A DNA stretch of 64,000 nt, taken from NCBI GenBank assembly GCA_028695415.1, contig JAQVIY010000001.1, forward strand, positions 46,784 through 110,783, read 5' to 3'. Position 1 is the first letter of the stretch, and every line of letters begins with the position of its first letter. The translations under genes were made by a program, and so were the position numbers. Origin of the DNA: Minisyncoccota bacterium. GTDB taxonomy: Bacteria > Patescibacteriota > Minisyncoccia > Phycocordibacterales > Phycocordibacteraceae. Below, piece by piece: positions 1-11,523 of this stretch. The notes under the pieces were generated by a model that saw nothing but the letters and a program-made list of their open reading frames with translations, searched no databases and was not told where the DNA came from.

Positions 1-1513
1 AGATTTTCTCCAAAGTAATCTTTTTTACTGCTCCTTGATATGCCTCAAGTTCGTCAATATTCAGAAAATATACTTTCAACTTCTTTATTCCTGGGCAGCC
101 ACCGACTTCCAGGAGATCTAACTCCGTTTCTATAATCTCCTTATAAAGATTGGAGGAGACCATAGGAACATCCAAGAAAACAATCACCGGGATCAATTTC
201 TTCCAGCGAAAAATCTTAAGCTCATCATGATCAGGAATGTCTTGTATGCGCTGATACATTTGCTTTATGCTCCCTACCATTTTGGCAACTTCCTTCTTAA
301 GAAGTTCTTTCTCTCCCGTTCGTTTAGCCAGTAATGGGAACTGATAGGCTTTTACCTCAAACAAATATACCTTCCATCGACCTGAACGCACCCAGAAATC
401 AATAAACTTAGCTTCGGCCTTTCCTTTCTTGTAATGAATCTCTCCGAAAACATTCTCTTCACCATAAATACCCTTCAGAATTAATCCGACGTAGCTTTCG
501 AAAACACTGCCAAAATAATCTCGAAAATCGCGATGAGTGCCTTTTGCAAAGAAATACTCATGGAACCACCAATATAGGCCTGCAAAGCCTTTCTTTAGAG
601 CGAATATAATATTAGGAACTACATACGGATCTTCGGAGGGAATATTCGTCTTTATAATTGGATAAATTTGAAGGGGGTTGAATCGAGTCTTGGTGTTCTC
701 AGGCAGTAGGCCTTCATTCATCCGTTTATCTTCTTCTTTGAAGAGGTTGTAATCGGCAGACAGCATATCGAGAAATTTCGATACCTTCTCATCAGTCAGG
801 ACTGATTTTAGAGAAGGAATCGCAGCCTGGGTTAAAGACTCTTTCCTAAAAGTTCCTGTCTTTTGTGCGCAAGCAAATACCGCCATAACCAAAAAGAAAT
901 ACTCAGAAATAGTTAAGCCGACTTCTCGTTCGAAGATTGTTGAGAGGTTCTCAAACTTAACAGGCTGAATTTCATTAATTATCTTGGTGAAAATAACAAT
1001 GTTCCTTGATATGGCTAGCGCTGGATTAAATTGAAGCTCAAGCTGCTCGCTATGCATTCGAACCATTAAGGATGGGAAATCTTTTCGATCAAAAGGCTTG
1101 GAGGGGTCTCTGATCAATTCAGGCATAACAAGGCTATTGCTGTATATATTGCAAAGGGTCAATATGTTTTGCCGATCAGTGATCTGCTTCTTGTATTTAT
1201 AGTCGTTGGCCCTTGAGACCAAGAGAATATTTGCAAGATACGCAAGTGCAAACTGCGTAATAAAAACTCCGTAGGTTGGATCTCTATAGCCTCCTTTCCC
1301 GATTTTGTCCGGACTTTTTGAGTTGAATATCGCACTAGAGACGCGGCCAAGAGCTACTAGACCATTACGGAGATCGTATTTTCCCAAAACCTCAAGAAGC
1401 TCTTCTTCAGAGACTCTCTTTTCATCACTACGAGCGAGATTGCTTATATCTGCATTAGCCCACAAGACCTTTGAAGATTGAGATGCCGTGTCGTGTATTT
1501 CGGGTGAGGGCAT
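1..1513 (-). CDS. Hypothetical protein, 5'-partial at the window edge (>=504 aa). AT-rich. C-terminal region carries a possible PD-(D/E)xK-like motif (IDFWV...LFEVKAY)
   Basis: Manual translation of the reverse strand from ATG at 1513 gives an uninterrupted frame to position 1. Absent from the ORF track because it runs off the edge. Confidence 0.5.
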   Translation of the reverse strand, partial: MPSPEIHDTASQSSKVLWANADISNLARSDEKRVSEEELLEVLGKYDLRNGLVALGRVSSAIFNSKSPDKIGKGGYRDPTYGVFITQFALAYLANILLVSRANDYKYKKQITDRQNILTLCNIYSNSLVMPELIRDPSKPFDRKDFPSLMVRMHSEQLELQFNPALAISRNIVIFTKIINEIQPVKFENLSTIFEREVGLTISEYFFLVMAVFACAQKTGTFRKESLTQAAIPSLKSVLTDEKVSKFLDMLSADYNLFKEEDKRMNEGLLPENTKTRFNPLQIYPIIKTNIPSEDPYVVPNIIFALKKGFAGLYWWFHEYFFAKGTHRDFRDYFGSVFESYVGLILKGIYGEENVFGEIHYKKGKAEAKFIDFWVRSGRWKVYLFEVKAYQFPLLAKRTGEKELLKKEVAKMVGSIKQMYQRIQDIPDHDELKIFRWKKLIPVIVFLDVPMVSSNLYKEIIETELDLLEVGGCPGIKKLKVYFLNIDELEAYQGAVKKITLEKI

Positions 1514-1563
1514 AGGTCCAAAAGTCTGGCAGCAGTTTTGTTATGATAATCGTAAATTAAGTT

Positions 1564-1872
1564 ATGAAAAGACCCTCCCCAAGGCAGATGCGATATGCGT
1601 ACGGTCTTATGAATTTCCATAGATCTAAGCGACAAGTTGCCCTGGATGCGGGGTTCGCGGAGAGCACCGCCAGAGTGCCGAAATTAATCGAAAACAAGGC
1701 TGGTTTTAAGCTCGCAATGGCTCAATTGGCCGGTGAGACAGAGAATGTGTCCATGAAGCTCATGTTTGAATTGCAGGCACGTGATCTGGGGGAGATGAGC
1801 AATGACGATCTCCTACATTCTCTTGAGGTAATGTCCCGCGTTCACGAGAGATTTACCTCTAAATCCATCTAA
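1564..1872 (+). CDS. Phage terminase small subunit-like HTH protein (Terminase_2-like N-terminus)
   Basis: N-terminus PSPRQMRYAYGLM...ALDAGFAESTARV..LIENKA matches the TerS pattern LTPKQ..F...Y....A..AGYS..TA. Confidence 0.4.
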   Translation: MKRPSPRQMRYAYGLMNFHRSKRQVALDAGFAESTARVPKLIENKAGFKLAMAQLAGETENVSMKLMFELQARDLGEMSNDDLLHSLEVMSRVHERFTSKSI

Positions 1873-2104
1873 GCTCAAAACGTGGTACAGTTTTTAGGTG
1901 CTCCCAGTTGAATAAGAAGACCTAACCCGCCAGCTGTGGCTGTCGGTATGGTCGAAAGTCCTTGGAAGATAGAAAACCCATCATGTGGGCCTGTCTTCCA
2001 AGGCCATAGCGGGAAACCGTTATGGGAGGCGCAAGCCTCCACCCACGTGGTGGGTTTTTTGTATACCTACCACCCCATTAATTCTTCAAAATTATCTTAC
2101 ATAT

Positions 2105-2308
2105 ATGGAGGCACAAAAACCTGTGAGTCGATTGAGTTGGGGGCAATACTTATTTGTTGGCGTGGCTATGCTAATCGTTGGTTTTTCGATAACTAATACT
2201 TACGCCGATACTTCCGTCATGTGGAACGTAGGGGCAGGAGTACAGCTCGTAGGATGGGGTTTCTTTATAACAGGCGTAGTGCGCGGGGTAAAAGGAAGAA
2301 CAAAATGA
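2105..2308 (+). CDS. Small 2-TM membrane protein
   Basis: Internal ATG of ORF 1985..2308; two hydrophobic helices. Confidence 0.3.
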   Translation: MEAQKPVSRLSWGQYLFVGVAMLIVGFSITNTYADTSVMWNVGAGVQLVGWGFFITGVVRGVKGRTK

Positions 2309-2796
2309 ATATAAATAAACATTCGTTGTTGGGAGTAGTGATGATAATACCCATCGCACTTATCGTCGCTCTGCACCCAATTCCAGCAAAAGCTTCACTA
2401 CTTTTTCCTGGTTTTAGCTTTCCTTGCCCGGCTGAGATTGGTTGTACAAAAGAACAAACACAGGCACGTGTGCAACTACAGAAACAAGCGGCATACGACG
2501 CGGGATGCCAGAGTTACATAGATAGTCATGGTGGTCACGGCACCTCTGTGTCTGCAAGCGACGGCAGCGAGTGCAAGACGACATGCAGCACCGGATACCA
2601 TCTGAATGCAGTAAACGCGTGCGCTCCAAACACAACAGTTGCTCCGGCTACTTCAAATCAATCGGTATCGCAGAGCGGAAAATATGCCTCCGGGCTTACG
2701 ACACAGCAGATAAATGCCATCGTCGTGCTACTGCAAGCGTTTGGGGCGAGTCAGACGGTCATTGTTCAAGTCGAGGCCGCTTTGCGAGGAAAATAG
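2305..2796 (+). CDS. Secreted Cys-rich hypothetical protein (signal peptide)
   Basis: MNINKHSLLGVVMIIPIALIVALHPIPAKA signal-like N-terminus; AT-rich island. Confidence 0.35.
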   Translation: MNINKHSLLGVVMIIPIALIVALHPIPAKASLLFPGFSFPCPAEIGCTKEQTQARVQLQKQAAYDAGCQSYIDSHGGHGTSVSASDGSECKTTCSTGYHLNAVNACAPNTTVAPATSNQSVSQSGKYASGLTTQQINAIVVLLQAFGASQTVIVQVEAALRGK

Positions 2797-2800
2797 GAAC

Positions 2801-3046
2801 ATGCTCTATTTTCTGCTAATTGTGATCGCTGTTGGTGTGCTTCTCATTTCTCCTGCTGGAAAAAAGATTCTGAAGTGGGCGGCAATAATCGCAGTTATAG
2901 CAGCGGCCCTAAGTGCTGCCGTATTAGGGATCATGTTGATTTCTGAAAAATACGGAGGAACTTGGGGCATACTCGCAGGACTTGCTTTGCTGGGGCTAGT
3001 GCTCAGGATGTTTGGGTTCGGACAGGATGATAAATCCACTGGTTAG
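2801..3046 (+). CDS. Small membrane protein (2-3 TM)
   Basis: MLYFLLIVIAVGVLLI... hydrophobic; internal ATG of ORF 2714..3046. Confidence 0.3.
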   Translation: MLYFLLIVIAVGVLLISPAGKKILKWAAIIAVIAAALSAAVLGIMLISEKYGGTWGILAGLALLGLVLRMFGFGQDDKSTG

Positions 3047-3359: not shown

Positions 3360-5363
3360 ATGGCAAATCATGAGAATTCTCTCGTGGCCAAATTTGGGCA
3401 CGAAAAGCGATGGGTTAATTGGAAGTACGAAGAGCGAGACGGGAAAATTACCAAGGTGCCGTATGCGGTTAACGGCAAAAGGGCTTCTAGCGTTGACTCT
3501 TCCACGTGGAGCACTTATGCCGAAGTTTCCAGGATAAGTAGCAACGTAGGGATTATCTTCACCGAGGATCAACGCCTCCTTGGGATCGATATAGACCACG
3601 TTGTTGAAGATGGTGTGGTGAGCGACGATATTCAGCGCTTTATAGACGCTGCGGAAACATATACGGAAATCTCGCCCAGCGGCACAGGCCTGCACCTGTT
3701 CTTGGCGGTAACAGAGCCTCTCTCACTGACAAAGCACAAGAAAGCGCCCTACGAGCTGTATACCTCAAAACGGTTCTTCACGGTCACTAGGAACGAGTTC
3801 ACGGACTCGCCTGTGCGGACTGTTACGCCTGAAGAGGCTCTGAGGCTTCTCGCAATCATTGGTTATCCGTGGAACAAAGATGAGCCGGAAGCGCCAGCGG
3901 CGGTGCTTGGCGGCGGTGTCAGGCCACCTGCGTTGCCGCCCATGGCCGACGAGGAGCTTCTTGAGAAGATGTTTGCCTCGAAGAATGGGCACACGATAAG
4001 AGCTCTCTACCGAGGCGATATATCGAGCTACGAAAACGACGATTCTCGTGCTGACATGGCACTCTGCGCCCATCTCGCCTATTGGACGCACAATGACGGG
4101 GCTCAGATGGAACGTATATGGCTTGCCTCAGGGCTTGGACAAAGAGAAAAGACTCAGGGCCGGAAGGATTACCGTGAGCGAACGATTGCAGCCGCGATAG
4201 AGGGTAATGCCCAAGCGCGGTCTGAGAAGAACGTGCCTCAAAAGAGCCATGGGGCACAATCGGTTGGCGCGCAAGCGATAACCATCCGTATGTCGGATGT
4301 GCAGCCTAAGCCTATTGAATGGCTGTGGTTCGGACGTATAGCTCTCGGCAAGCTCACGATCATTGCCGGAGATCCGGGGCTCGGTAAGAGCCTTACTACT
4401 ATCGACATGGCGGCAAGGGTGTCGAAGGGCTGTGCATGGCCACTCGAAGGCTCTCTAGCGCCCCTGGGTAACGTGGTATTCCTCTCTGCTGAAGACGATC
4501 CGGGAGACACAATCAGGCCTCGTCTTGACGCTGCGGGTGCGGATTGTTCGCGCGTGCATGTAATTCAGGCGATCAGGGACGCGAATGAGGAAGGCAGACC
4601 GATGGAGCGAATGTTCTCGTTCAGAAAAGATATTACCGTCCTCGAAGATCTGTTGCGTACGCTCTCGGACTGCCGTCTTCTCGTGATTGACCCTGTGTCG
4701 GCATATTTGGATGGAACGAAAAGTCACGAGAACGCAGAGGTGCGACAAGTCCTGGCTCCGCTTGCTAAGCTGGCGGCGGATTTCGGTGTCGCGGTTGTCG
4801 TGGTGCAGCACCTCAACAAAAACAGCGGAGATAACGCCATGTACCGCTCAATGGGCTCTATCGGCTTTGTTGCTGCTGCCAGAGCCGCCTATATCGTTAC
4901 CAAGGACAAGGATAACCAGGAGCGTAGGCTGGTGATGCCGATCAAAAATAATCTCGCGAAAGATACGCTCGGTCTGGCCTACTCGGTCGTCGAGGCCTCA
5001 AACAGAGCTCCTATGCTCGTGTGGGAGTCTGAGGCAGTAACAATTACGGCCGACGAAGCATTGGGCCGCTCAGACTCCGATGAAGAAAAGACAAAAATTG
5101 AATGGGCGATACAGGTGCTGGAGGTTGTGCTCGCGGACGGCCCGGTTGCGGCGACAGAAGTTAATCGTGAAGCAAGACAGGCTGGCATATCCCAAAGCAC
5201 GCTGCACCGCGCGAAGGACAAGCTAGGCGTAAAACCGAAGAAAGCCAGTTTCAAGGATGGGTGGGTATGGTCGTTGCCCAACCGCGAAGGTGTTCAGATA
5301 AGCGAAGATGCCACACCTAAAGAGGTGGGTATCTTGGGGATGGATGAACACCTTGGTGAATAG
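3360..5363 (+). CDS. Fused DNA primase/polymerase (Prim-Pol N-terminus, PriCT-like middle) plus RecA-like/AAA_25 RepA-type helicase, C-terminal wHTH. Typical of phage/plasmid/satellite replicons
   Basis: DxD motif GIDIDH; P-loop GDPGLGKS; VVFLSAEDD; LVIDPVSAYL; VVVVQHLNK. Confidence 0.8.
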   Translation: MANHENSLVAKFGHEKRWVNWKYEERDGKITKVPYAVNGKRASSVDSSTWSTYAEVSRISSNVGIIFTEDQRLLGIDIDHVVEDGVVSDDIQRFIDAAETYTEISPSGTGLHLFLAVTEPLSLTKHKKAPYELYTSKRFFTVTRNEFTDSPVRTVTPEEALRLLAIIGYPWNKDEPEAPAAVLGGGVRPPALPPMADEELLEKMFASKNGHTIRALYRGDISSYENDDSRADMALCAHLAYWTHNDGAQMERIWLASGLGQREKTQGRKDYRERTIAAAIEGNAQARSEKNVPQKSHGAQSVGAQAITIRMSDVQPKPIEWLWFGRIALGKLTIIAGDPGLGKSLTTIDMAARVSKGCAWPLEGSLAPLGNVVFLSAEDDPGDTIRPRLDAAGADCSRVHVIQAIRDANEEGRPMERMFSFRKDITVLEDLLRTLSDCRLLVIDPVSAYLDGTKSHENAEVRQVLAPLAKLAADFGVAVVVVQHLNKNSGDNAMYRSMGSIGFVAAARAAYIVTKDKDNQERRLVMPIKNNLAKDTLGLAYSVVEASNRAPMLVWESEAVTITADEALGRSDSDEEKTKIEWAIQVLEVVLADGPVAATEVNREARQAGISQSTLHRAKDKLGVKPKKASFKDGWVWSLPNREGVQISEDATPKEVGILGMDEHLGE

Positions 5364-5703: not shown

Positions 5704-7566
5704 ATGAAGTCTGCTGAAAAAATAAATGTCATCGGGCACTGCCGAGTGAGCTCTTCAAAACAAGCGCAAGAAGGCGAAAGCCTTAGCGTGCAAGAAGGAA
5801 TCGTTCGTGCGCACGCCGAGCGGAATAATTGGAACATGGTGAAGGTGTGGCACGAGAGCTACTCGGGCCGAAAAGAAACTCGGCCAGTATTTAACGAAAT
5901 TCTTACTTACCTCGATTCTCATCCGAGGCAGATTGAATACTATGTCTTTCGTACCATTGATCGCTTCACGCGCGGTGGTACGGGGATGTATGACCAAATG
6001 AGGAAGGAGCTCTTGAAGCGTGGTGTGGCAATGGTTGATACGAGCGGAATGATTCAGAAATCAAAAAATACTCTTGAGGATTTAGATTTTGAATATTCAT
6101 GGAGCCGTCATTCTCCGAGCGAGATCACGGAAGTTGTGGTAGCGACCACTTCAAAACAAGAAGTAACCAATATTGAGACTCGTATGATTGGGCAAGAGAT
6201 CCGATTAACGCAACAGGGGTACAAGGTTCGACACGCGCAAGACGGCTTCTTGAATACCAAGATTTACGATACCGACGGCAAGAAGCGCACGGTGATGATT
6301 GAGGACCCTATCCGCGCCAAGTATCTTCAGGCAATGTTCGAACTTCGTGCAGAAGGTCAGTTGAGTGATTCAGAGATCGTGAGTCGGGTAAATGCAATGG
6401 GATACCGCAGTCGAGCGCACAAGAAATGGGACAAGAGCCACACGAGAATCCTTGGCGCGGGCGGTGGAAAACTGCTTACGGTGAAGCATTTGCAGGAAAT
6501 CATCCAGCGCCCCATTTACGCAGGTTTAATTTGCGAGAAATGGACGAAGCATAAGCCGGTGAAGGCAAAGTTTGACGGCCTAGTGTCCGTGAACATTTTC
6601 AACAAGGCAAATAGAGGAAAGGTCTTCATAGAAGAAAAAGATGATGGGTCTTATGGAATTCTGTACGACCACTATCCCGATCGTGTCGTCGTGAAGAGAA
6701 TGCGAGACAACCCGCTATTCCCGTATAAGTCGGTGGTGATGTGCCCAGAATGCGGGAAGCCGTTCATGGGAAGTCGCTCACGAAGCAAGAGCGGCAATCC
6801 CGTGCCGTATTACCATTGTTCGCGCAAACACAAGTGGATTGGGTTCAATAAGTCTGCGTTTGAGAAGACAATCGAAGATTATGCGAACCGGCTTTATTTC
6901 TTGCCGGACGAGACAACGAGCATGAAGGCCTCGCTGAAGCACCTGTATAACGAGCGTAAGTCAGAAATCGCTCGTGAGACGGTATCTATGGAGGAAAATG
7001 TCGCTGAGCTAAAGATCCAAAAGAAAGAGGCTTTAGAGGCGTTTAAGGCAGCCACAAGTGAGGTAGTGCGCCGCGAGCTCGAAAGAGATATTGAGCAGCT
7101 TGAGACTCGCATCAACGGATCCGGCGCGGAGCACGCAAGTCTCAAGATTACGGAGTCAGATATCGATGCTTTCATGGAGTACGCAAAAGGCATAATGGAA
7201 CACCCAGCAAAAGCGCTATTGAATACAGTAAATGCGCGCCATCAGGAGTCTCTTTACTCTGTGGTATTCGACGAACTGCCATCTATTACGGAGATGGCTA
7301 ATGGAACACCTAAATTGTCTTGGATTTTCAGGCTTTCTGAGGAATCTCAGACACCTAAATCTGTGTTGGCGGGCCCACTAGGAATCGAACCTAGGCTGTC
7401 GGTTTTGGAGACCGATGTACTACCATTATACGATGGACCCTTCGCACTCACGTACGATACCAGACGCTGGGATGGTTTACCACGAGCGATTTATCCCAAA
7501 CGCAGTCGAGGGGAGTCGAGTGGGGAAAGCCGTCCCAGGCAGGGCGATGCGCGGTATGATAGAGAT
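5704..7566 (+). CDS. Large serine recombinase (resolvase N-domain, recombinase domain, zinc ribbon, coiled coil). No in-frame stop: the frame reads antisense through tRNA-Trp and into the next gene
   Basis: Catalytic motif INVIGHCRVSSSKQ; zinc ribbon CPECGKPF...YYHCSRKHKW. ORF track shows a continuous frame 5662..8466. Confidence 0.8.
7367..7440 (-). tRNA. tRNA-Trp (anticodon CCA), CCA encoded
   Basis: Minus strand GGGTCCA TC GTAT AATGGTA GTAC A TCGGT CTCCAAA ACCGA CAGC CTAGG TTCGATT CCTAG TGGGCCC G CCA. Cloverleaf folds, G73. Confidence 0.85.
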
Positions 7567-8466
7567 ATGCGTTCTCGCACTTCACTCTTCGCGCTTCTGC
7601 TTGTGGCGGGTTTGTTTATAGTACCCGCTATTGCCTCTGCACAAAGCGTACCGTTTTTCGGCCCCATCATCCCCCAGGAAGCTAATCAGGGGCTGTGCCC
7701 GGCGAGTTGGGGTATGGTCATCATCGTCATCAATCGGATTATCGCGTTCATGATCACGCTCGCTATTGTCTTCGTCGCGCCTTTAATGATTGCCTATTCC
7801 GGATTCCTCTTCGTCGTGAATCCTGTAAACGCGAGCGGGAAAGAGAAGGCGAAAGAAATTTTACGGAACACCGTTATCGGCATCGTCATTGCACTCTCGG
7901 GCTGGATGATCGTCGATGCGCTTATGGCGGTGCTCTATAACCCAGGCAATGCTGGCGGGACATGGATGACTATTATCAGGGGAAATACTGCCGATGTGTG
8001 CCTCCCGCAGAAAGGAGCGTTACCTAGCGGTACATTGAATCAAACCGGCACGGTAACGAATGTAGGAGTAAGTCCCGGCGCTGCTACGGGAAGATATACG
8101 TTTGATCCGGGCATAGCCGTACAGACGAAAGACGAATCAGGCCCGCTCTCGAGCTTGCTCTCCTGTATGGCGGGGAAATTACCGGCAGGTGTTGGTAGGA
8201 TTTCCTCGATTTCTGATAGCCTTATAACAAGCGGTCAGAAGACTTTTGCGCAGTGTGCAACGGGTGGCTGTCAGCATCAGGCAAACTCGTGTCATTATGG
8301 AGGCAAGACCTGCATTGGCAGCTCGTATGCCGTTGATTTCGGTGATGATGAAAACATCACAATACTCACGGCCGCTGCAAAGGCTTGCGGTGCTCAAACC
8401 CTCAATGAAGGGACGCATCTGCACGCGAGCGTCGGTGCCGTGAGCGGTTGCGGTTGCGGTCTCTAA
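7567..8466 (+). CDS. Secreted/membrane protein: Sec signal peptide, two TM helices, Cys/His-rich C-terminal domain
   Basis: MRSRTSLFALLLVAGLFIVPAIASA signal peptide. In frame with the upstream recombinase ORF. Confidence 0.5.
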   Translation: MRSRTSLFALLLVAGLFIVPAIASAQSVPFFGPIIPQEANQGLCPASWGMVIIVINRIIAFMITLAIVFVAPLMIAYSGFLFVVNPVNASGKEKAKEILRNTVIGIVIALSGWMIVDALMAVLYNPGNAGGTWMTIIRGNTADVCLPQKGALPSGTLNQTGTVTNVGVSPGAATGRYTFDPGIAVQTKDESGPLSSLLSCMAGKLPAGVGRISSISDSLITSGQKTFAQCATGGCQHQANSCHYGGKTCIGSSYAVDFGDDENITILTAAAKACGAQTLNEGTHLHASVGAVSGCGCGL

Positions 8467-10139: not shown

Positions 10140-10386
10140 GCCCTGCTTCGCCAAGGCTACGCAGGGCTACTTCGCTGTGTGTGCACTTCGTAGCTCCATT
10201 TCTGAATGGAGCGAAGTAGTGCCGGGAGAGGCTTGGTCACGCTTTACTAATTCGCTTCGCTCATAAGTATGCGCGACCCCGCCTCGCGACGCTCGGGGAC
10301 TCGCGTATCGCTCCGGCTTTCAAGTCTCTCACGCACGGTGCGCAGGCACCGTGCTTCCCGGCACAGCTTTCGCTTCGCTCAATCTG

Positions 10387-10467
10387 TGCCGGGAGAGAGA
10401 CTTGAACTCTCATGTCTTTCGACGAGGGGTTTTGAATCCCTTGCGTATACCATTTCGCCATCCCGGC
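10387..10467 (-). tRNA. tRNA-Leu (anticodon CAA), type II with long variable arm
   Basis: Minus strand GCCGGGA TG GCG AAATGGTATA CGC A AGGGA TTCAAAA CCCCT CGTCGAAAGACAT GAGAG TTCAAGT CTCTC TCCCGGC A. Confidence 0.75.
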
Positions 10468-10500
10468 AGCGCCCTTCGAAGCTTTACGCGAAGTAGGGCA

Positions 10501-11523
10501 ATGAATTCTAGAGTACCATATGCTAAAATTGTTTTACATATGAATGATGACGCGGCGTATATCCCGACAAAATATGATTCGATCTTCTGGATTGATGTCG
10601 ATCGTATCATCCCGAATCCGTACCAGCCGCGCAAGGTCTTTACCGAAGAGGGGTTGAAGTCGCTCGCAGACAGCATCCGCCAGTACGGCGTGCTCCAGCC
10701 GCTCGTGGTCTCGCGCACCGAAGTCGAGAAGCCGGACGGCGGGCTCGAAAGCCTCTATGAGCTCGTCGCGGGTGAGCGGCGCTTGCGCGCGAGCAGGCTC
10801 GCGGGATTGAAACAAGTGCCGGTCGTTATCCGTCAGGGCGACAACAATCTCACCAAGCTCGAGCTCGCCATCATCGAGAACCTCCAGCGCGAAGACCTGA
10901 ACGCGGTTGACCGCGCGAAGGCGCTCCAGCGGCTCATCGATGAGTTCGGCATCTCACACGCCGAGACTGCCGCGAAGATAGGCAAGAGCCGCGAATATGT
11001 CTCGAACTCTATCCGCCTCCTCTCGCTCCCTGAATATATTCAGGAGGCCATTATCTCGAAAGAAATAAACGAGGGGCACGCCCGCCCCTTGCTCACGCTC
11101 AACAGCCGCCCCGAAGAGCGCGACACGCTCTTCAAGGAGATAACGCTCAAGAAGCTCTCCGTGCGCGCCGCCGAGCGCATCGCGCGCTCCATCGCGCAGG
11201 AGCGCGTGCGTTCGCGTCATCGCAAGTCGCCTGAAATGGTTGAGATAGAGAAATCGCTTACCGAAAGTCTCGGCACGCGCGTCATTATTGAGACGAATGC
11301 CGAGGGCGGCCGTCTCCTTATTGATTTCTTTTCTCCAGACGATCTTCAGCAGCTGGTTGACGCTCTCGCCGCAGAACAACAGGCAGTCGAGATGGCGCCA
11401 AAGGAGGAGGATGCGTATCCGCTATTTCCCAATACCACCCAAGTGTCCGATGATCCGATCGCGCCCGCGGCGCCCGAAGAGACCGAAGACGAGCTCTACT
11501 CGGTCTCCAATTTCAGCGTGTAG
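10501..11523 (+). CDS. parB: Chromosome partitioning protein ParB/Spo0J
   Basis: ParB N-domain GERRLRA with HTH. Start placed after tRNA-Leu; the track ORF start at 10351 overlaps the tRNA. Confidence 0.8.
   Translation: MNSRVPYAKIVLHMNDDAAYIPTKYDSIFWIDVDRIIPNPYQPRKVFTEEGLKSLADSIRQYGVLQPLVVSRTEVEKPDGGLESLYELVAGERRLRASRLAGLKQVPVVIRQGDNNLTKLELAIIENLQREDLNAVDRAKALQRLIDEFGISHAETAAKIGKSREYVSNSIRLLSLPEYIQEAIISKEINEGHARPLLTLNSRPEERDTLFKEITLKKLSVRAAERIARSIAQERVRSRHRKSPEMVEIEKSLTESLGTRVIIETNAEGGRLLIDFFSPDDLQQLVDALAAEQQAVEMAPKEEDAYPLFPNTTQVSDDPIAPAAPEETEDELYSVSNFSV

What the first reader, a model, noticed from the sequence alone, without database searches (positions are those of the whole stretch)
1..1513. 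Large AT-rich cargo protein with a PD-(D/E)xK-like motif: candidate defence or restriction-like gene
A 504+ aa ORF, absent from the ORF track because it runs off the window edge, sits in the lowest-GC part of the window. Near its C-terminus the spacing ...EAKFIDFWVRSGRWKVYLFEVKAY... (D-x13-E-V-K) fits the restriction-endonuclease-fold catalytic core. It is the outermost visible gene of the island.
Basis: inference. Interest (0 to 1): 0.55.

Follow-up and report, generated by a model that had tools for sequence, protein, structure and literature searches.

The report
Distant GAPS1-like defence nuclease on mini-island
The gene at the window's left edge encodes a distant relative of GAPS1, a known single-protein anti-phage nuclease, and it rides as variable cargo on a small mobile element in an ultra-small (CPR) bacterium, so it is a believable but unsurprising defence gene.

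Summary
The ORF is real. It lies on the minus strand, starts at the ATG at 1513 and runs off the left edge. The window holds 504 of 601 aa, and the missing part is the C-terminus, not the N-terminus. The full protein is a hypothetical protein of a Candidatus Pacebacteria MAG. Gene GC is 0.41 against a background of 0.55.

However, D372/E386/K388 are conserved in 54-55 of 55 homologues. A confident AlphaFold model places them on strands 2 and 3 of an alpha-beta-beta-beta-alpha-beta core, and almost all of its top structural matches are PD-(D/E)xK nucleases.

The protein matches NCBIfam "antiphage GapS1" at E 1e-21 but scores far below the family cut-off. The motif lines up with the catalytic D313/K328 of Vibrio GAPS1.

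There is no methyltransferase or other conserved partner. Close relatives occur in only 11 of 185,579 species genomes, often in defence islands or beside large serine recombinases.

In this window the gene is the end cargo of a ~7.7 kb element made of primase-helicase, serine recombinase and LOOT RNA, inserted at tRNA-Trp. The closest related element lacks the gene.

Verdict: a new, distant member of a known kind. Defence function is inferred, not shown.

The parts
1..1513 (-). GapS1-like gene: codons 1-504 of a 601-aa protein (P0001). The last 97 codons lie beyond the left edge of the window.
   Evidence: Translation. There is a 100% match to P0001, a hypothetical protein (PHV99_00270) of a Ca. 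Pacebacteria MAG. NCBIfam GapS1 match: E 1.4e-21, 76.9 bits, residues 132-499.
539..1471 (-). N-terminal, mostly alpha-helical region (residues ~15-325). It is the presumed sensor/regulatory domain.
   Evidence: AF2 secondary structure with pLDDT mostly above 90. No Pfam domain. It is conserved about as well as the nuclease part. The sensor role is inferred from GAPS1.
14..538 (-). PD-(D/E)xK nuclease domain (residues ~326-500).
350..400 (-).
   Evidence: D372 is present in 55/55 family members and 57/57 superfamily members. E386 is in 54/55 and 53/57, and K388 in 54/55 and 51/57. The motif parallels Vibrio GAPS1 D313-x12-D326-A-K328, rebuilt from the published mutagenesis primers. D313A and K328A abolish defence in GAPS1.
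1543..1570 (-). Promoter-like site 30 nt upstream of the start codon (TTTTCA-16-TATCAT).
   Evidence: Consensus scan. This is weak evidence, because the region has fewer such sites than its shuffles.
1588..1872 (+). Divergent 94-aa ORF with no known domain. It is the first gene of the element's plus-strand block.
   Evidence: Called gene. No Pfam match.
1919..2040 (+). LOOT RNA (Rfam RF03000), ending in a hairpin followed by a T-run. It is a component of the same mobile element.
   Evidence: 87.9 bits against a gathering score of 46.4, E 5e-16. Terminator-like hairpin at 2038-2054. LOOT also occurs in related serine-recombinase elements L016, L019/L026, L022 and L023/L024.
2105..3046 (+). Three small ORFs (67, 163 and 81 aa) with no known domain, between LOOT and the replication gene.
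3360..5363 (+). Element replication protein: NrS-1-polymerase helix-bundle domain plus an AAA_25/DnaB-like ATPase (667 aa).
   Evidence: Pfam AAA_25 at E 1.6e-33 and NrS1-1_pol-like_HBD at E 5e-14. It is 64% identical over its C-terminal half to its counterpart in L023/L024.
5704..7366 (+). Large serine recombinase (about 550 aa). The called 920-aa ORF reads on through the antisense tRNA into a host gene.
   Evidence: Pfam Resolvase, Recombinase and Zn_ribbon_recom within aa 9-382. Translation. Homologues of 535-562 aa lie next to the GapS1-like gene in 6 of 16 loci.
7367..7440 (-). tRNA-Trp(cca), the probable integration site and right border of the element.
   Evidence: ARAGORN and Rfam, 65.3 bits. 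The same tRNA/recombinase overlap is seen in L019, L022, L007 and L024. L024 has the same tRNA / pilin-like / miaA flank.

Best explanation
The gene encodes a single-protein, GAPS1-like anti-phage nuclease. The proposed mechanism is as follows. A ~325-residue helical N-terminal region keeps a C-terminal PD-(D/E)xK nuclease (D372, E386, K388) inactive. A phage product then switches it on; in GAPS1 that product is the major capsid protein. The nuclease cuts nucleic acid and stops growth of the infected cell, so the phage cannot complete its cycle.

The gene is variable cargo at the far end of a ~7.7 kb integrative element. The element comprises a 94-aa ORF, LOOT RNA, small ORFs, a primase-helicase and a large serine recombinase. 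It is inserted at the 3' end of tRNA-Trp in a Candidatus Pacebacteria (CPR) genome.

Shown here: homology to the GapS1 profile, the nuclease fold, conservation of the catalytic triad, the absence of a partner gene, the patchy distribution, and the mobile-element and defence-island contexts.

Inferred: anti-phage activity, the trigger, the substrate, and dormancy as the outcome.
For: NCBIfam NF047931 'antiphage GapS1' is the only significant family hit. It scores E 1.4e-21 over residues 132-499, covering profile positions 72-427 of 455. The same model is hit by 53 of 55 close homologues and by 50 of 57 distant ones.

D372, E386 and K388 are conserved. They match in pattern and spacing the GAPS1 segment GKVV-D313-FLHQRNGTSIFI-D326-A-K328, rebuilt from the paper's primers. 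GAPS1 D313A and K328A lose defence. GAPS1 is a single protein triggered by the T7 capsid protein Gp10 and causes dormancy.

The only recurring neighbour across 16 loci is a serine recombinase. Homologues lie beside GmrSD, an AlwI-type restriction enzyme, methyltransferases and a UvrD helicase (L009), and near Fic and AbiEi/AbiEii (L007).

Only 11 of 185,579 species genomes carry a close relative. Gene GC is 0.408 against 0.552. The closest related element has an 81% identical recombinase and sits at the same tRNA-Trp / pilin-like / miaA site, yet it lacks the gene and carries other cargo, including a KAP NTPase.
Against: The GapS1 score of 76.9 bits is far below NCBI's curated cut-off of 320. 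None of the 110 relatives tested came close; the best reached E 7e-31. The protein is therefore a distant cousin rather than a curated family member, and function may have drifted.

I could not obtain a full-length bona fide GAPS1 sequence, so no direct alignment or profile-profile comparison was made. The PADLOC 2023 models give only a 13-bit Shedu hit.

Nothing here tests activity. No phage of this host is known. The N-terminal region is not more variable than the nuclease domain, so it shows no sign of the arms-race variability some sensors have.

Ten of 16 loci show no mobile or defence context within the stretch examined (for example).
Confidence: 0.62

Rival explanations
1. It is a solitary nucleic-acid-sensing restriction enzyme, Type IV-like or otherwise modification-dependent. 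The helical N-terminal region would read DNA directly, and the PD-(D/E)xK domain would cut foreign DNA without any protein trigger.
For: It has the same fold as FokI, N.BspD6I, HindIII, McrC and AspBHI. It is a solitary gene without a methyltransferase, as expected for Type IV enzymes. One homologue sits among restriction-modification genes and GmrSD.
Confidence: 0.15
2. It serves the mobile element rather than the host. It could be an addiction or exclusion nuclease, or a processing nuclease used in the element's own replication or transfer. The neighbouring LOOT RNA might be its regulator.
For: A large serine recombinase lies within 5 kb in 6 of 16 loci. LOOT RNA lies 0.4-3.6 kb from the gene in 4 of those loci.
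Against: Ten of 16 loci have no recombinase and 12 have no LOOT. The closest related element (81% identical recombinase, same site, with LOOT) does without the gene, so it is not a backbone function. The position and orientation of the gene relative to LOOT are not conserved.
Confidence: 0.1
3. It is a housekeeping DNA repair or recombination nuclease of the host. It sits next to xseB and xseA, which encode exonuclease VII.
For: Adjacency to xseB and xseA. Many repair nucleases have the PD-(D/E)xK fold.
Against: Close relatives are found in only 11 of 185,579 species genomes, scattered over Patescibacteria, Zixibacteria and Dadabacteria. Gene GC is 14 points below the genome background. The gene is convergent with xseB, not in its operon. 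No xseB or xseA match was found in any other locus examined, so that neighbourhood is not conserved.
Confidence: 0.03

Closest known systems
[quoted passage not shown]
   Same: Both are single-gene systems of roughly 450-550 aa. Both have a helical N-terminal part followed by a PD-(D/E)xK domain in the C-terminal half. The profile match is significant over about 360 residues (E 1e-21). The catalytic segments share pattern and spacing: hydrophobic-hydrophobic-D-F-hydrophobic, a hairpin, four hydrophobic residues, then (D/E)-x-K. Both are carried as cargo on mobile islands.
   Different: The score is 77 bits against the curated cut-off of 320, and identity is around 20%. This protein has E386 where GAPS1 has D326, and the hairpin is one residue longer (x13 against x12). 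The host is a CPR bacterium rather than Gammaproteobacteria. The carrier is a serine-recombinase element at a tRNA gene rather than a GMT island. Activity, trigger and outcome are untested.
Upx (PDB 9wuf; PMC13099982, PMC13601566)
   Different: Upx is twice as long (1,272 aa by the paper's domain numbering; the PDB chain has 1,212 residues) and has an extra N-terminal nuclease and a middle domain. There is no detectable sequence similarity: the family profile found nothing relevant in PDB sequences. Upx senses the terminase or gp16.
Shedu SduA (DUF4263)
   Different: The hit is only 13 bits over 57 residues. The N-terminal domain and the oligomeric architecture differ. This is similarity at fold level only.
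Type IIS and nicking restriction endonucleases (FokI, N.BspD6I) and CARF nucleases (Can2, Card1)
   Different: There is no recognition domain, CARF domain or methyltransferase partner, and identity is 9-14%.

Membership tests
GapS1 / GAPS1 (NCBIfam NF047931) | Whole-protein score at or above the curated cut-off (320 bits) | tested here: not met
   76.9 bits, E 1.4e-21. The best of 110 relatives reaches E 7e-31, still well below the cut-off. Two plasmid homologues score 69 and 94 bits.
GapS1 / GAPS1 (NCBIfam NF047931) | Significant homology to the family profile over most of its length | tested here: met
   Residues 132-499 align to profile positions 72-427 of 455. 53 of 55 close homologues and 50 of 57 distant ones hit the same model and essentially nothing else.
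GapS1 / GAPS1 (Mahata et al.) | PD-(D/E)xK active site in the C-terminal half, equivalent to D313/K328, whose mutation abolishes defence | tested here: met
   D372/E386/K388 are conserved and lie on the second and third strands of the predicted core. The GAPS1 segment rebuilt from the mutagenesis primers has a parallel pattern. No full-length alignment was made, and catalysis itself was not tested.
GapS1 / GAPS1 (Mahata et al.) | Acts as a single protein, with no conserved partner gene | tested here: met
   All-against-all comparison of neighbours within 5 kb in 16 loci found only a serine recombinase recurring, in 6 of 16.
GapS1 / GAPS1 (Mahata et al.) | Protects against phage, is triggered by a capsid protein, and causes dormancy | not testable with these tools
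   This needs expression and phage challenge. It is known only for the Vibrio and E. coli proteins.
PD-(D/E)xK nuclease superfamily | Alpha-beta-beta-beta-alpha-beta core, with an acidic residue at the start of strand 2 and (D/E)xK in strand 3 | tested here: met
Type II restriction-modification system | Cognate DNA methyltransferase encoded next to the nuclease | tested here: not met
   The neighbours are xseB/xseA on one side and domain-less small ORFs, a primase-helicase and a recombinase on the other. No methyltransferase recurs across loci.
Shedu (SduA, DUF4263) | Significant match to the DUF4263/SduA profile | tested here: not met
   PADLOC SduA gives E 0.0094 and 13.2 bits over 57 residues only. 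Pfam finds no DUF4263.
Upx | Protein of ~1,200-1,270 aa with N-terminal nuclease, middle domain and C-terminal nuclease, plus sequence homology to Upx | tested here: not met

The most novel reading that the evidence does not exclude
The gene and the LOOT RNA could be functionally linked parts of a previously undescribed class of CPR mini-islands. These are ~8 kb elements that replicate with an NrS-1-like primase-helicase and insert at the 3' ends of tRNA genes through a large serine recombinase whose reading frame crosses the attachment site. In this reading, LOOT RNA would control expression of the adjacent cargo, or directly restrain the GapS1-like nuclease in the manner of an RNA antitoxin. 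That would give the orphan LOOT motif a function and give CPR bacteria a portable abortive-infection module.
Probability: 0.07. Interest if true: 0.6.

Novelty: new member of a known kind. Interest (0 to 1): 0.33.

Why it matters
It extends the GAPS1-type sensor-nuclease family well beyond the Proteobacteria and Firmicutes in which it was defined. The profile found a broad, unannotated superfamily of ~500-aa proteins: 2,291 representative clusters at E up to 0.001. It also documents one clade in ultra-small CPR/Patescibacteria genomes, which, to my knowledge, are thought to carry few defence systems.

The carrier element is informative in itself. It shows how such genomes can acquire defence genes as swappable cargo. 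It also places the orphan LOOT RNA motif on a defined class of mobile elements.

None of this overturns current understanding. It is an annotation gain and a lead for experiments.

Tried and rejected
(1) Pfam, PHROGs and PADLOC gave only sub-threshold hits: DUF4143 at E 0.099, SduA at E 0.0094, and PHROGs hits at E 0.029 or weaker.

(2) A sequence search of PDB chains with the family profile found nothing relevant.

(3) Two profile searches of the 5.8-billion-protein index (alignments A1 and A2) returned no new members and no protein named GapS1. I therefore could not obtain a full-length bona fide GAPS1.

(4) tblastn against plasmids found only 'hypothetical' distant homologues, themselves below the GapS1 cut-off. 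tblastn against phages found nothing.

(5) A 102-nt stretch of the Vibrio GAPS1 gene rebuilt from the primers had no match in the plasmid collection.

(6) The paper's Dataset S4 lists only accessions that are outside the collections available here.

(7) The afdb50 fold library was unavailable.

(8) I looked for a direct repeat of the tRNA-Trp region at the other end of the element. There is none of 11 nt or more. This is expected for serine recombinases, so the left border is set only by gene content.

(9) A six-member recombinase alignment was too divergent for the locus search. A two-member alignment worked.

(10) The LOOT motif is not described in the main text of the discovery paper, and its supplements are not held.

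Rejected readings:
- Housekeeping repair nuclease, because of the distribution and the GC content.
- Classical restriction-modification endonuclease, because there is no methyltransferase.
- Membership of Shedu or Upx, because the similarity is at fold level only.

Full report
**The observation**

A minus-strand reading frame starts at the ATG at window 1513-1511, nine codons after an in-frame stop. It stays open to base 1, giving 504 codons. The ORF lister omits it because it runs off the edge.

The protein index holds an identical, complete protein, P0001. It is 601 aa and annotated as a hypothetical protein of a Candidatus Pacebacteria MAG.

The quoted peptide is present: D372 is encoded at 398-400, E386 at 356-358 and K388 at 350-352. 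The gene has GC 0.408, against 0.552 for the window beyond 9 kb.

As a bare string the motif is not significant. The 504 residues contain three D-x(10-20)-[DE]-x-K pairs, and shuffles give 3.2 +/- 2.0.

**What makes the motif real**

I aligned 55 homologues of 31-59% identity and about 530-600 aa, none with a Pfam domain. D372 is invariant, and E386 and K388 are each present in 54 of 55.

A second alignment holds 57 far more distant relatives, 19-30% identical. These came from an exhaustive profile search of 1.84 billion representatives, which found 2,291 clusters at E up to 0.001. In that alignment D372 is again invariant, E386 is in 53 of 57 and K388 in 51 of 57. A further glutamate, E490, is invariant in both sets.

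AlphaFold2 with the family alignment gives a confident model (mean pLDDT 88.6, pTM 0.87). It has:
- a mostly helical region up to about residue 325;
- then helix 327-350, strands 360-363/366-369, 373-377 and 381-391, helix 402-424 and strand 439-448.

This is the alpha-beta-beta-beta-alpha-beta restriction-endonuclease core. The aspartate lies at the start of one strand and E-x-K inside the next.

**What family it is**

The only significant family match is NCBIfam NF047931, 'antiphage GapS1 family protein'. It scores E 1.4e-21 and 76.9 bits, with residues 132-499 aligned to profile positions 72-427 of 455. The same model is hit by 53 of 55 close homologues and 50 of 57 distant ones. All are far below the curated cut-off of 320 bits, as are two plasmid-borne relatives from Pseudomonas and Nostoc.

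GAPS1 was described by Mahata et al. (bioRxiv 10.1101/2023.03.28.534373). It is a single-protein system from a Vibrio GMT island with a PD-(D/E)xK domain toward the C-terminus. D313A and K328A abolish protection. Escape mutants map to the T7 capsid protein Gp10. Co-expression of Gp10 causes dormancy rather than death. E. coli homologues only 24-29% identical also protect.

I could not fetch a full GAPS1 sequence. The paper's site-directed-mutagenesis primers, however, overlap and translate in a single frame to DNKIQGKVV[A]FLHQRNGTSIFIDA[A]GVEPNQKI. The two engineered alanines are exactly 15 residues apart, as required for positions 313 and 328.

The wild-type GAPS1 segment is therefore GKVV-D313-FLHQRNGTSIFI-D326-A-K328. 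The present protein reads AKFI-D372-FWVRSGRWKVYLF-E386-V-K388. The pattern is the same, with a hairpin one residue longer and Glu in place of Asp.

**Structural neighbour**

Upx, a 1,272-aa single-protein defence nuclease (PMC13099982, PMC13601566), aligns over 347 residues. That is more than the nuclease core, which suggests a shared helical scaffold. There is no sequence similarity and the architecture differs. I treat Upx as an analogue, not as the family.

**Context in this genome**

The contig beyond the window (L001) shows xseB convergent with the gene, with the two stop codons 40 bp apart. The xseB assignment rests on Pfam Exonuc_VII_S at E 2.7e-4. Beyond it come xseA, ClpB, IF-2 and other housekeeping genes.

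On the other side lie, in order:
- a divergent 94-aa ORF;
- a full-length LOOT RNA at 1919-2040 (87.9 bits) ending in a hairpin and T-run;
- three small ORFs without domains;
- a 667-aa protein with an NrS-1-polymerase helix-bundle domain and an AAA_25/DnaB-like ATPase;
- a 59-aa ORF;
- a large serine recombinase.

The called 920-aa 'recombinase' is a run-on of three features. The recombinase ends at about residue 550. Residues ~555-579 are the antisense translation of an intact tRNA-Trp at 7367-7440. From about residue 640 a signal peptide and membrane helices begin a separate pilin-like host protein, which ends at 8466. miaA, ahpC, parB and relA follow.

The element therefore runs from just past the GapS1-like stop codon to the 3' end of tRNA-Trp, about 7.7 kb. 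No direct repeat marks the ends, as expected for a serine recombinase, so the left border is inferred from gene content only.

**Is it cargo, and is it defence?**

A pattern scan of one genome per species found close relatives in only 11 of 185,579 genomes. The count is a lower bound. The hosts are Minisyncoccia, Paceibacterota, Falkowbacteria (two), Saccharibacteria, an unnamed Patescibacteria bacterium, Zixibacteria, Dadabacteria and three unclassified bacterial MAGs.

Across 16 non-redundant loci, the only gene family that recurs within 5 kb is a large serine recombinase, in 6 loci. No methyltransferase, immunity gene or other partner recurs.

One homologue lies between a LexA-fused Dam-type methyltransferase (plus an AlwI-type enzyme, another methyltransferase, a UvrD helicase and GmrSD) and an HNH-like gene. 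Another lies near Fic and AbiEi/AbiEii, between two tRNA-flanked integrase modules. Others stand alone.

The closest relatives of this element come from Hainich groundwater (L023 and L024). They have an 81% identical recombinase, a 64% identical helicase and the same 59-aa ORF. L024 also extends into the same tRNA / pilin-like / miaA flank. They carry LOOT but no GapS1-like gene. In its place are a DUF805 membrane protein, a TPR protein, an EGF-like protein and a KAP-family NTPase.

The gene is therefore exchangeable cargo, not element backbone and not a host housekeeping gene. No homologue was found in 50,697 phage records.

**Mechanism, with its status**

Shown:
- a conserved PD-(D/E)xK catalytic core;
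- sequence homology to a validated anti-phage family;
- single-gene organisation;
- mobile and defence-island contexts.

Inferred by analogy with GAPS1, and more loosely with Upx:
- the helical N-terminal ~325 residues sense a phage protein and release the nuclease;
- the nuclease damages nucleic acid and arrests the infected cell.

The trigger and the substrate are unknown even for GAPS1. The N-terminal region here is no more variable than the nuclease domain, so there is no arms-race signature to lean on.

I put 0.62 on this reading. The rivals are a directly DNA-sensing solitary restriction-type enzyme (0.15), an element-serving nuclease (0.10) and housekeeping repair (0.03).

**Novelty and score**

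This is a new, distant member of a known kind. It fails the curated GapS1 threshold, so it should not be annotated 'GapS1 family protein'. 'GapS1-like PD-(D/E)xK nuclease, putative anti-phage' is justified.

Interest is modest (0.33). The result is an annotation gain for a large unannotated superfamily and a documented defence-type cargo in CPR genomes.

The more unexpected material is peripheral to the finding. One item is the recurring link between LOOT RNA and these serine-recombinase elements. The other is recombinase reading frames that run antisense across their tRNA target.

Noticed in passing
window 1919-2040 (+); also L016 10077-10195, L019 8679-8801 (= L026 8784-8906), L022 8522-8645, L023/L024 7223-7347: Full-length LOOT RNA (Rfam RF03000, 76-88 bits against a gathering score of 46) sits inside every well-sampled member of this serine-recombinase element family. 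It always ends in a hairpin plus T-run and is followed by an operon on the same strand. It is absent from the 10 GapS1-like loci that lack such a recombinase. To my knowledge LOOT has no assigned function or host, so this places it on a defined class of CPR mobile elements.
   Followed up: partly
window 5704-8466 (+) and 7367-7440 (-): The called 920-aa 'recombinase' is a run-on ORF. It consists of the serine recombinase (about 550 aa), the antisense of an intact tRNA-Trp, and a separate signal-peptide/multi-TM pilin-like host protein starting near window 7624. This is probably an annotation artefact in the deposited MAG.
   Followed up: partly
L019 5868-5940/5902-7590; L022 3658-3732/3644-5302; L007 12368-12445/12341-13981; L024 11667-11737/9914-11767; window 7367-7440: In five independent loci the 3' end of the large serine recombinase ORF overlaps, antisense, the 3' part or the whole of a tRNA gene (Glu, Asn, His, Trp, Trp). 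The attachment site therefore seems to lie inside the recombinase gene's own 3' end. As far as I know, tRNA genes are unusual targets for serine integrases.
   Followed up: partly
window 3360-5363 (+): The element's replication protein combines an NrS-1-polymerase helix-bundle domain (E 5e-14) with an AAA_25/DnaB-like ATPase (E 1.6e-33). The N-terminal ~230 residues, where a primase-polymerase would be expected, have no Pfam match.
   Followed up: no
L001 11640-11806 (beyond the window's left edge; P0001 residues 546-601): The last ~55 residues of this protein have pLDDT below 50 and align with no homologue; most relatives end near residue 545. The final ~29 residues may be read-through toward the element/host junction, 40 bp before the xseB stop codon.
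   Followed up: partly
L009 8001-9761 (P0063 and relatives P0064-P0068): A subclade of the family carries an N-terminal SEC-C/SWIM-type Cys motif (CPCGSGKKYKKCC, PF02810) fused to the GapS1-like body. The L009 copy sits in a dense defence island with GmrSD, an AlwI-type enzyme, two methyltransferases and a UvrD helicase.
   Followed up: no
L024 3-7097: The closest related element, at the same tRNA-Trp site, carries different cargo instead of the GapS1-like gene: a KAP-family P-loop NTPase (E 9e-33), a TPR protein, an EGF-like repeat protein and a DUF805 membrane protein. This suggests a swappable cargo slot.
   Followed up: partly
L004/L012 13268-17662 and L002 136-1569: Two loci carry copper/heavy-metal genes (HMBD, DUF305, YHS, a cation efflux protein, a CsoR-type repressor) within a few kb of the GapS1-like gene. 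This suggests larger composite islands in some CPR genomes.
   Followed up: no
window 10386-10467 (-): tRNA-Leu(caa) lies just upstream of parB. The listed 390-aa ORF at 10351-11523 overlaps it; the real parB gene starts near 10540.
   Followed up: no
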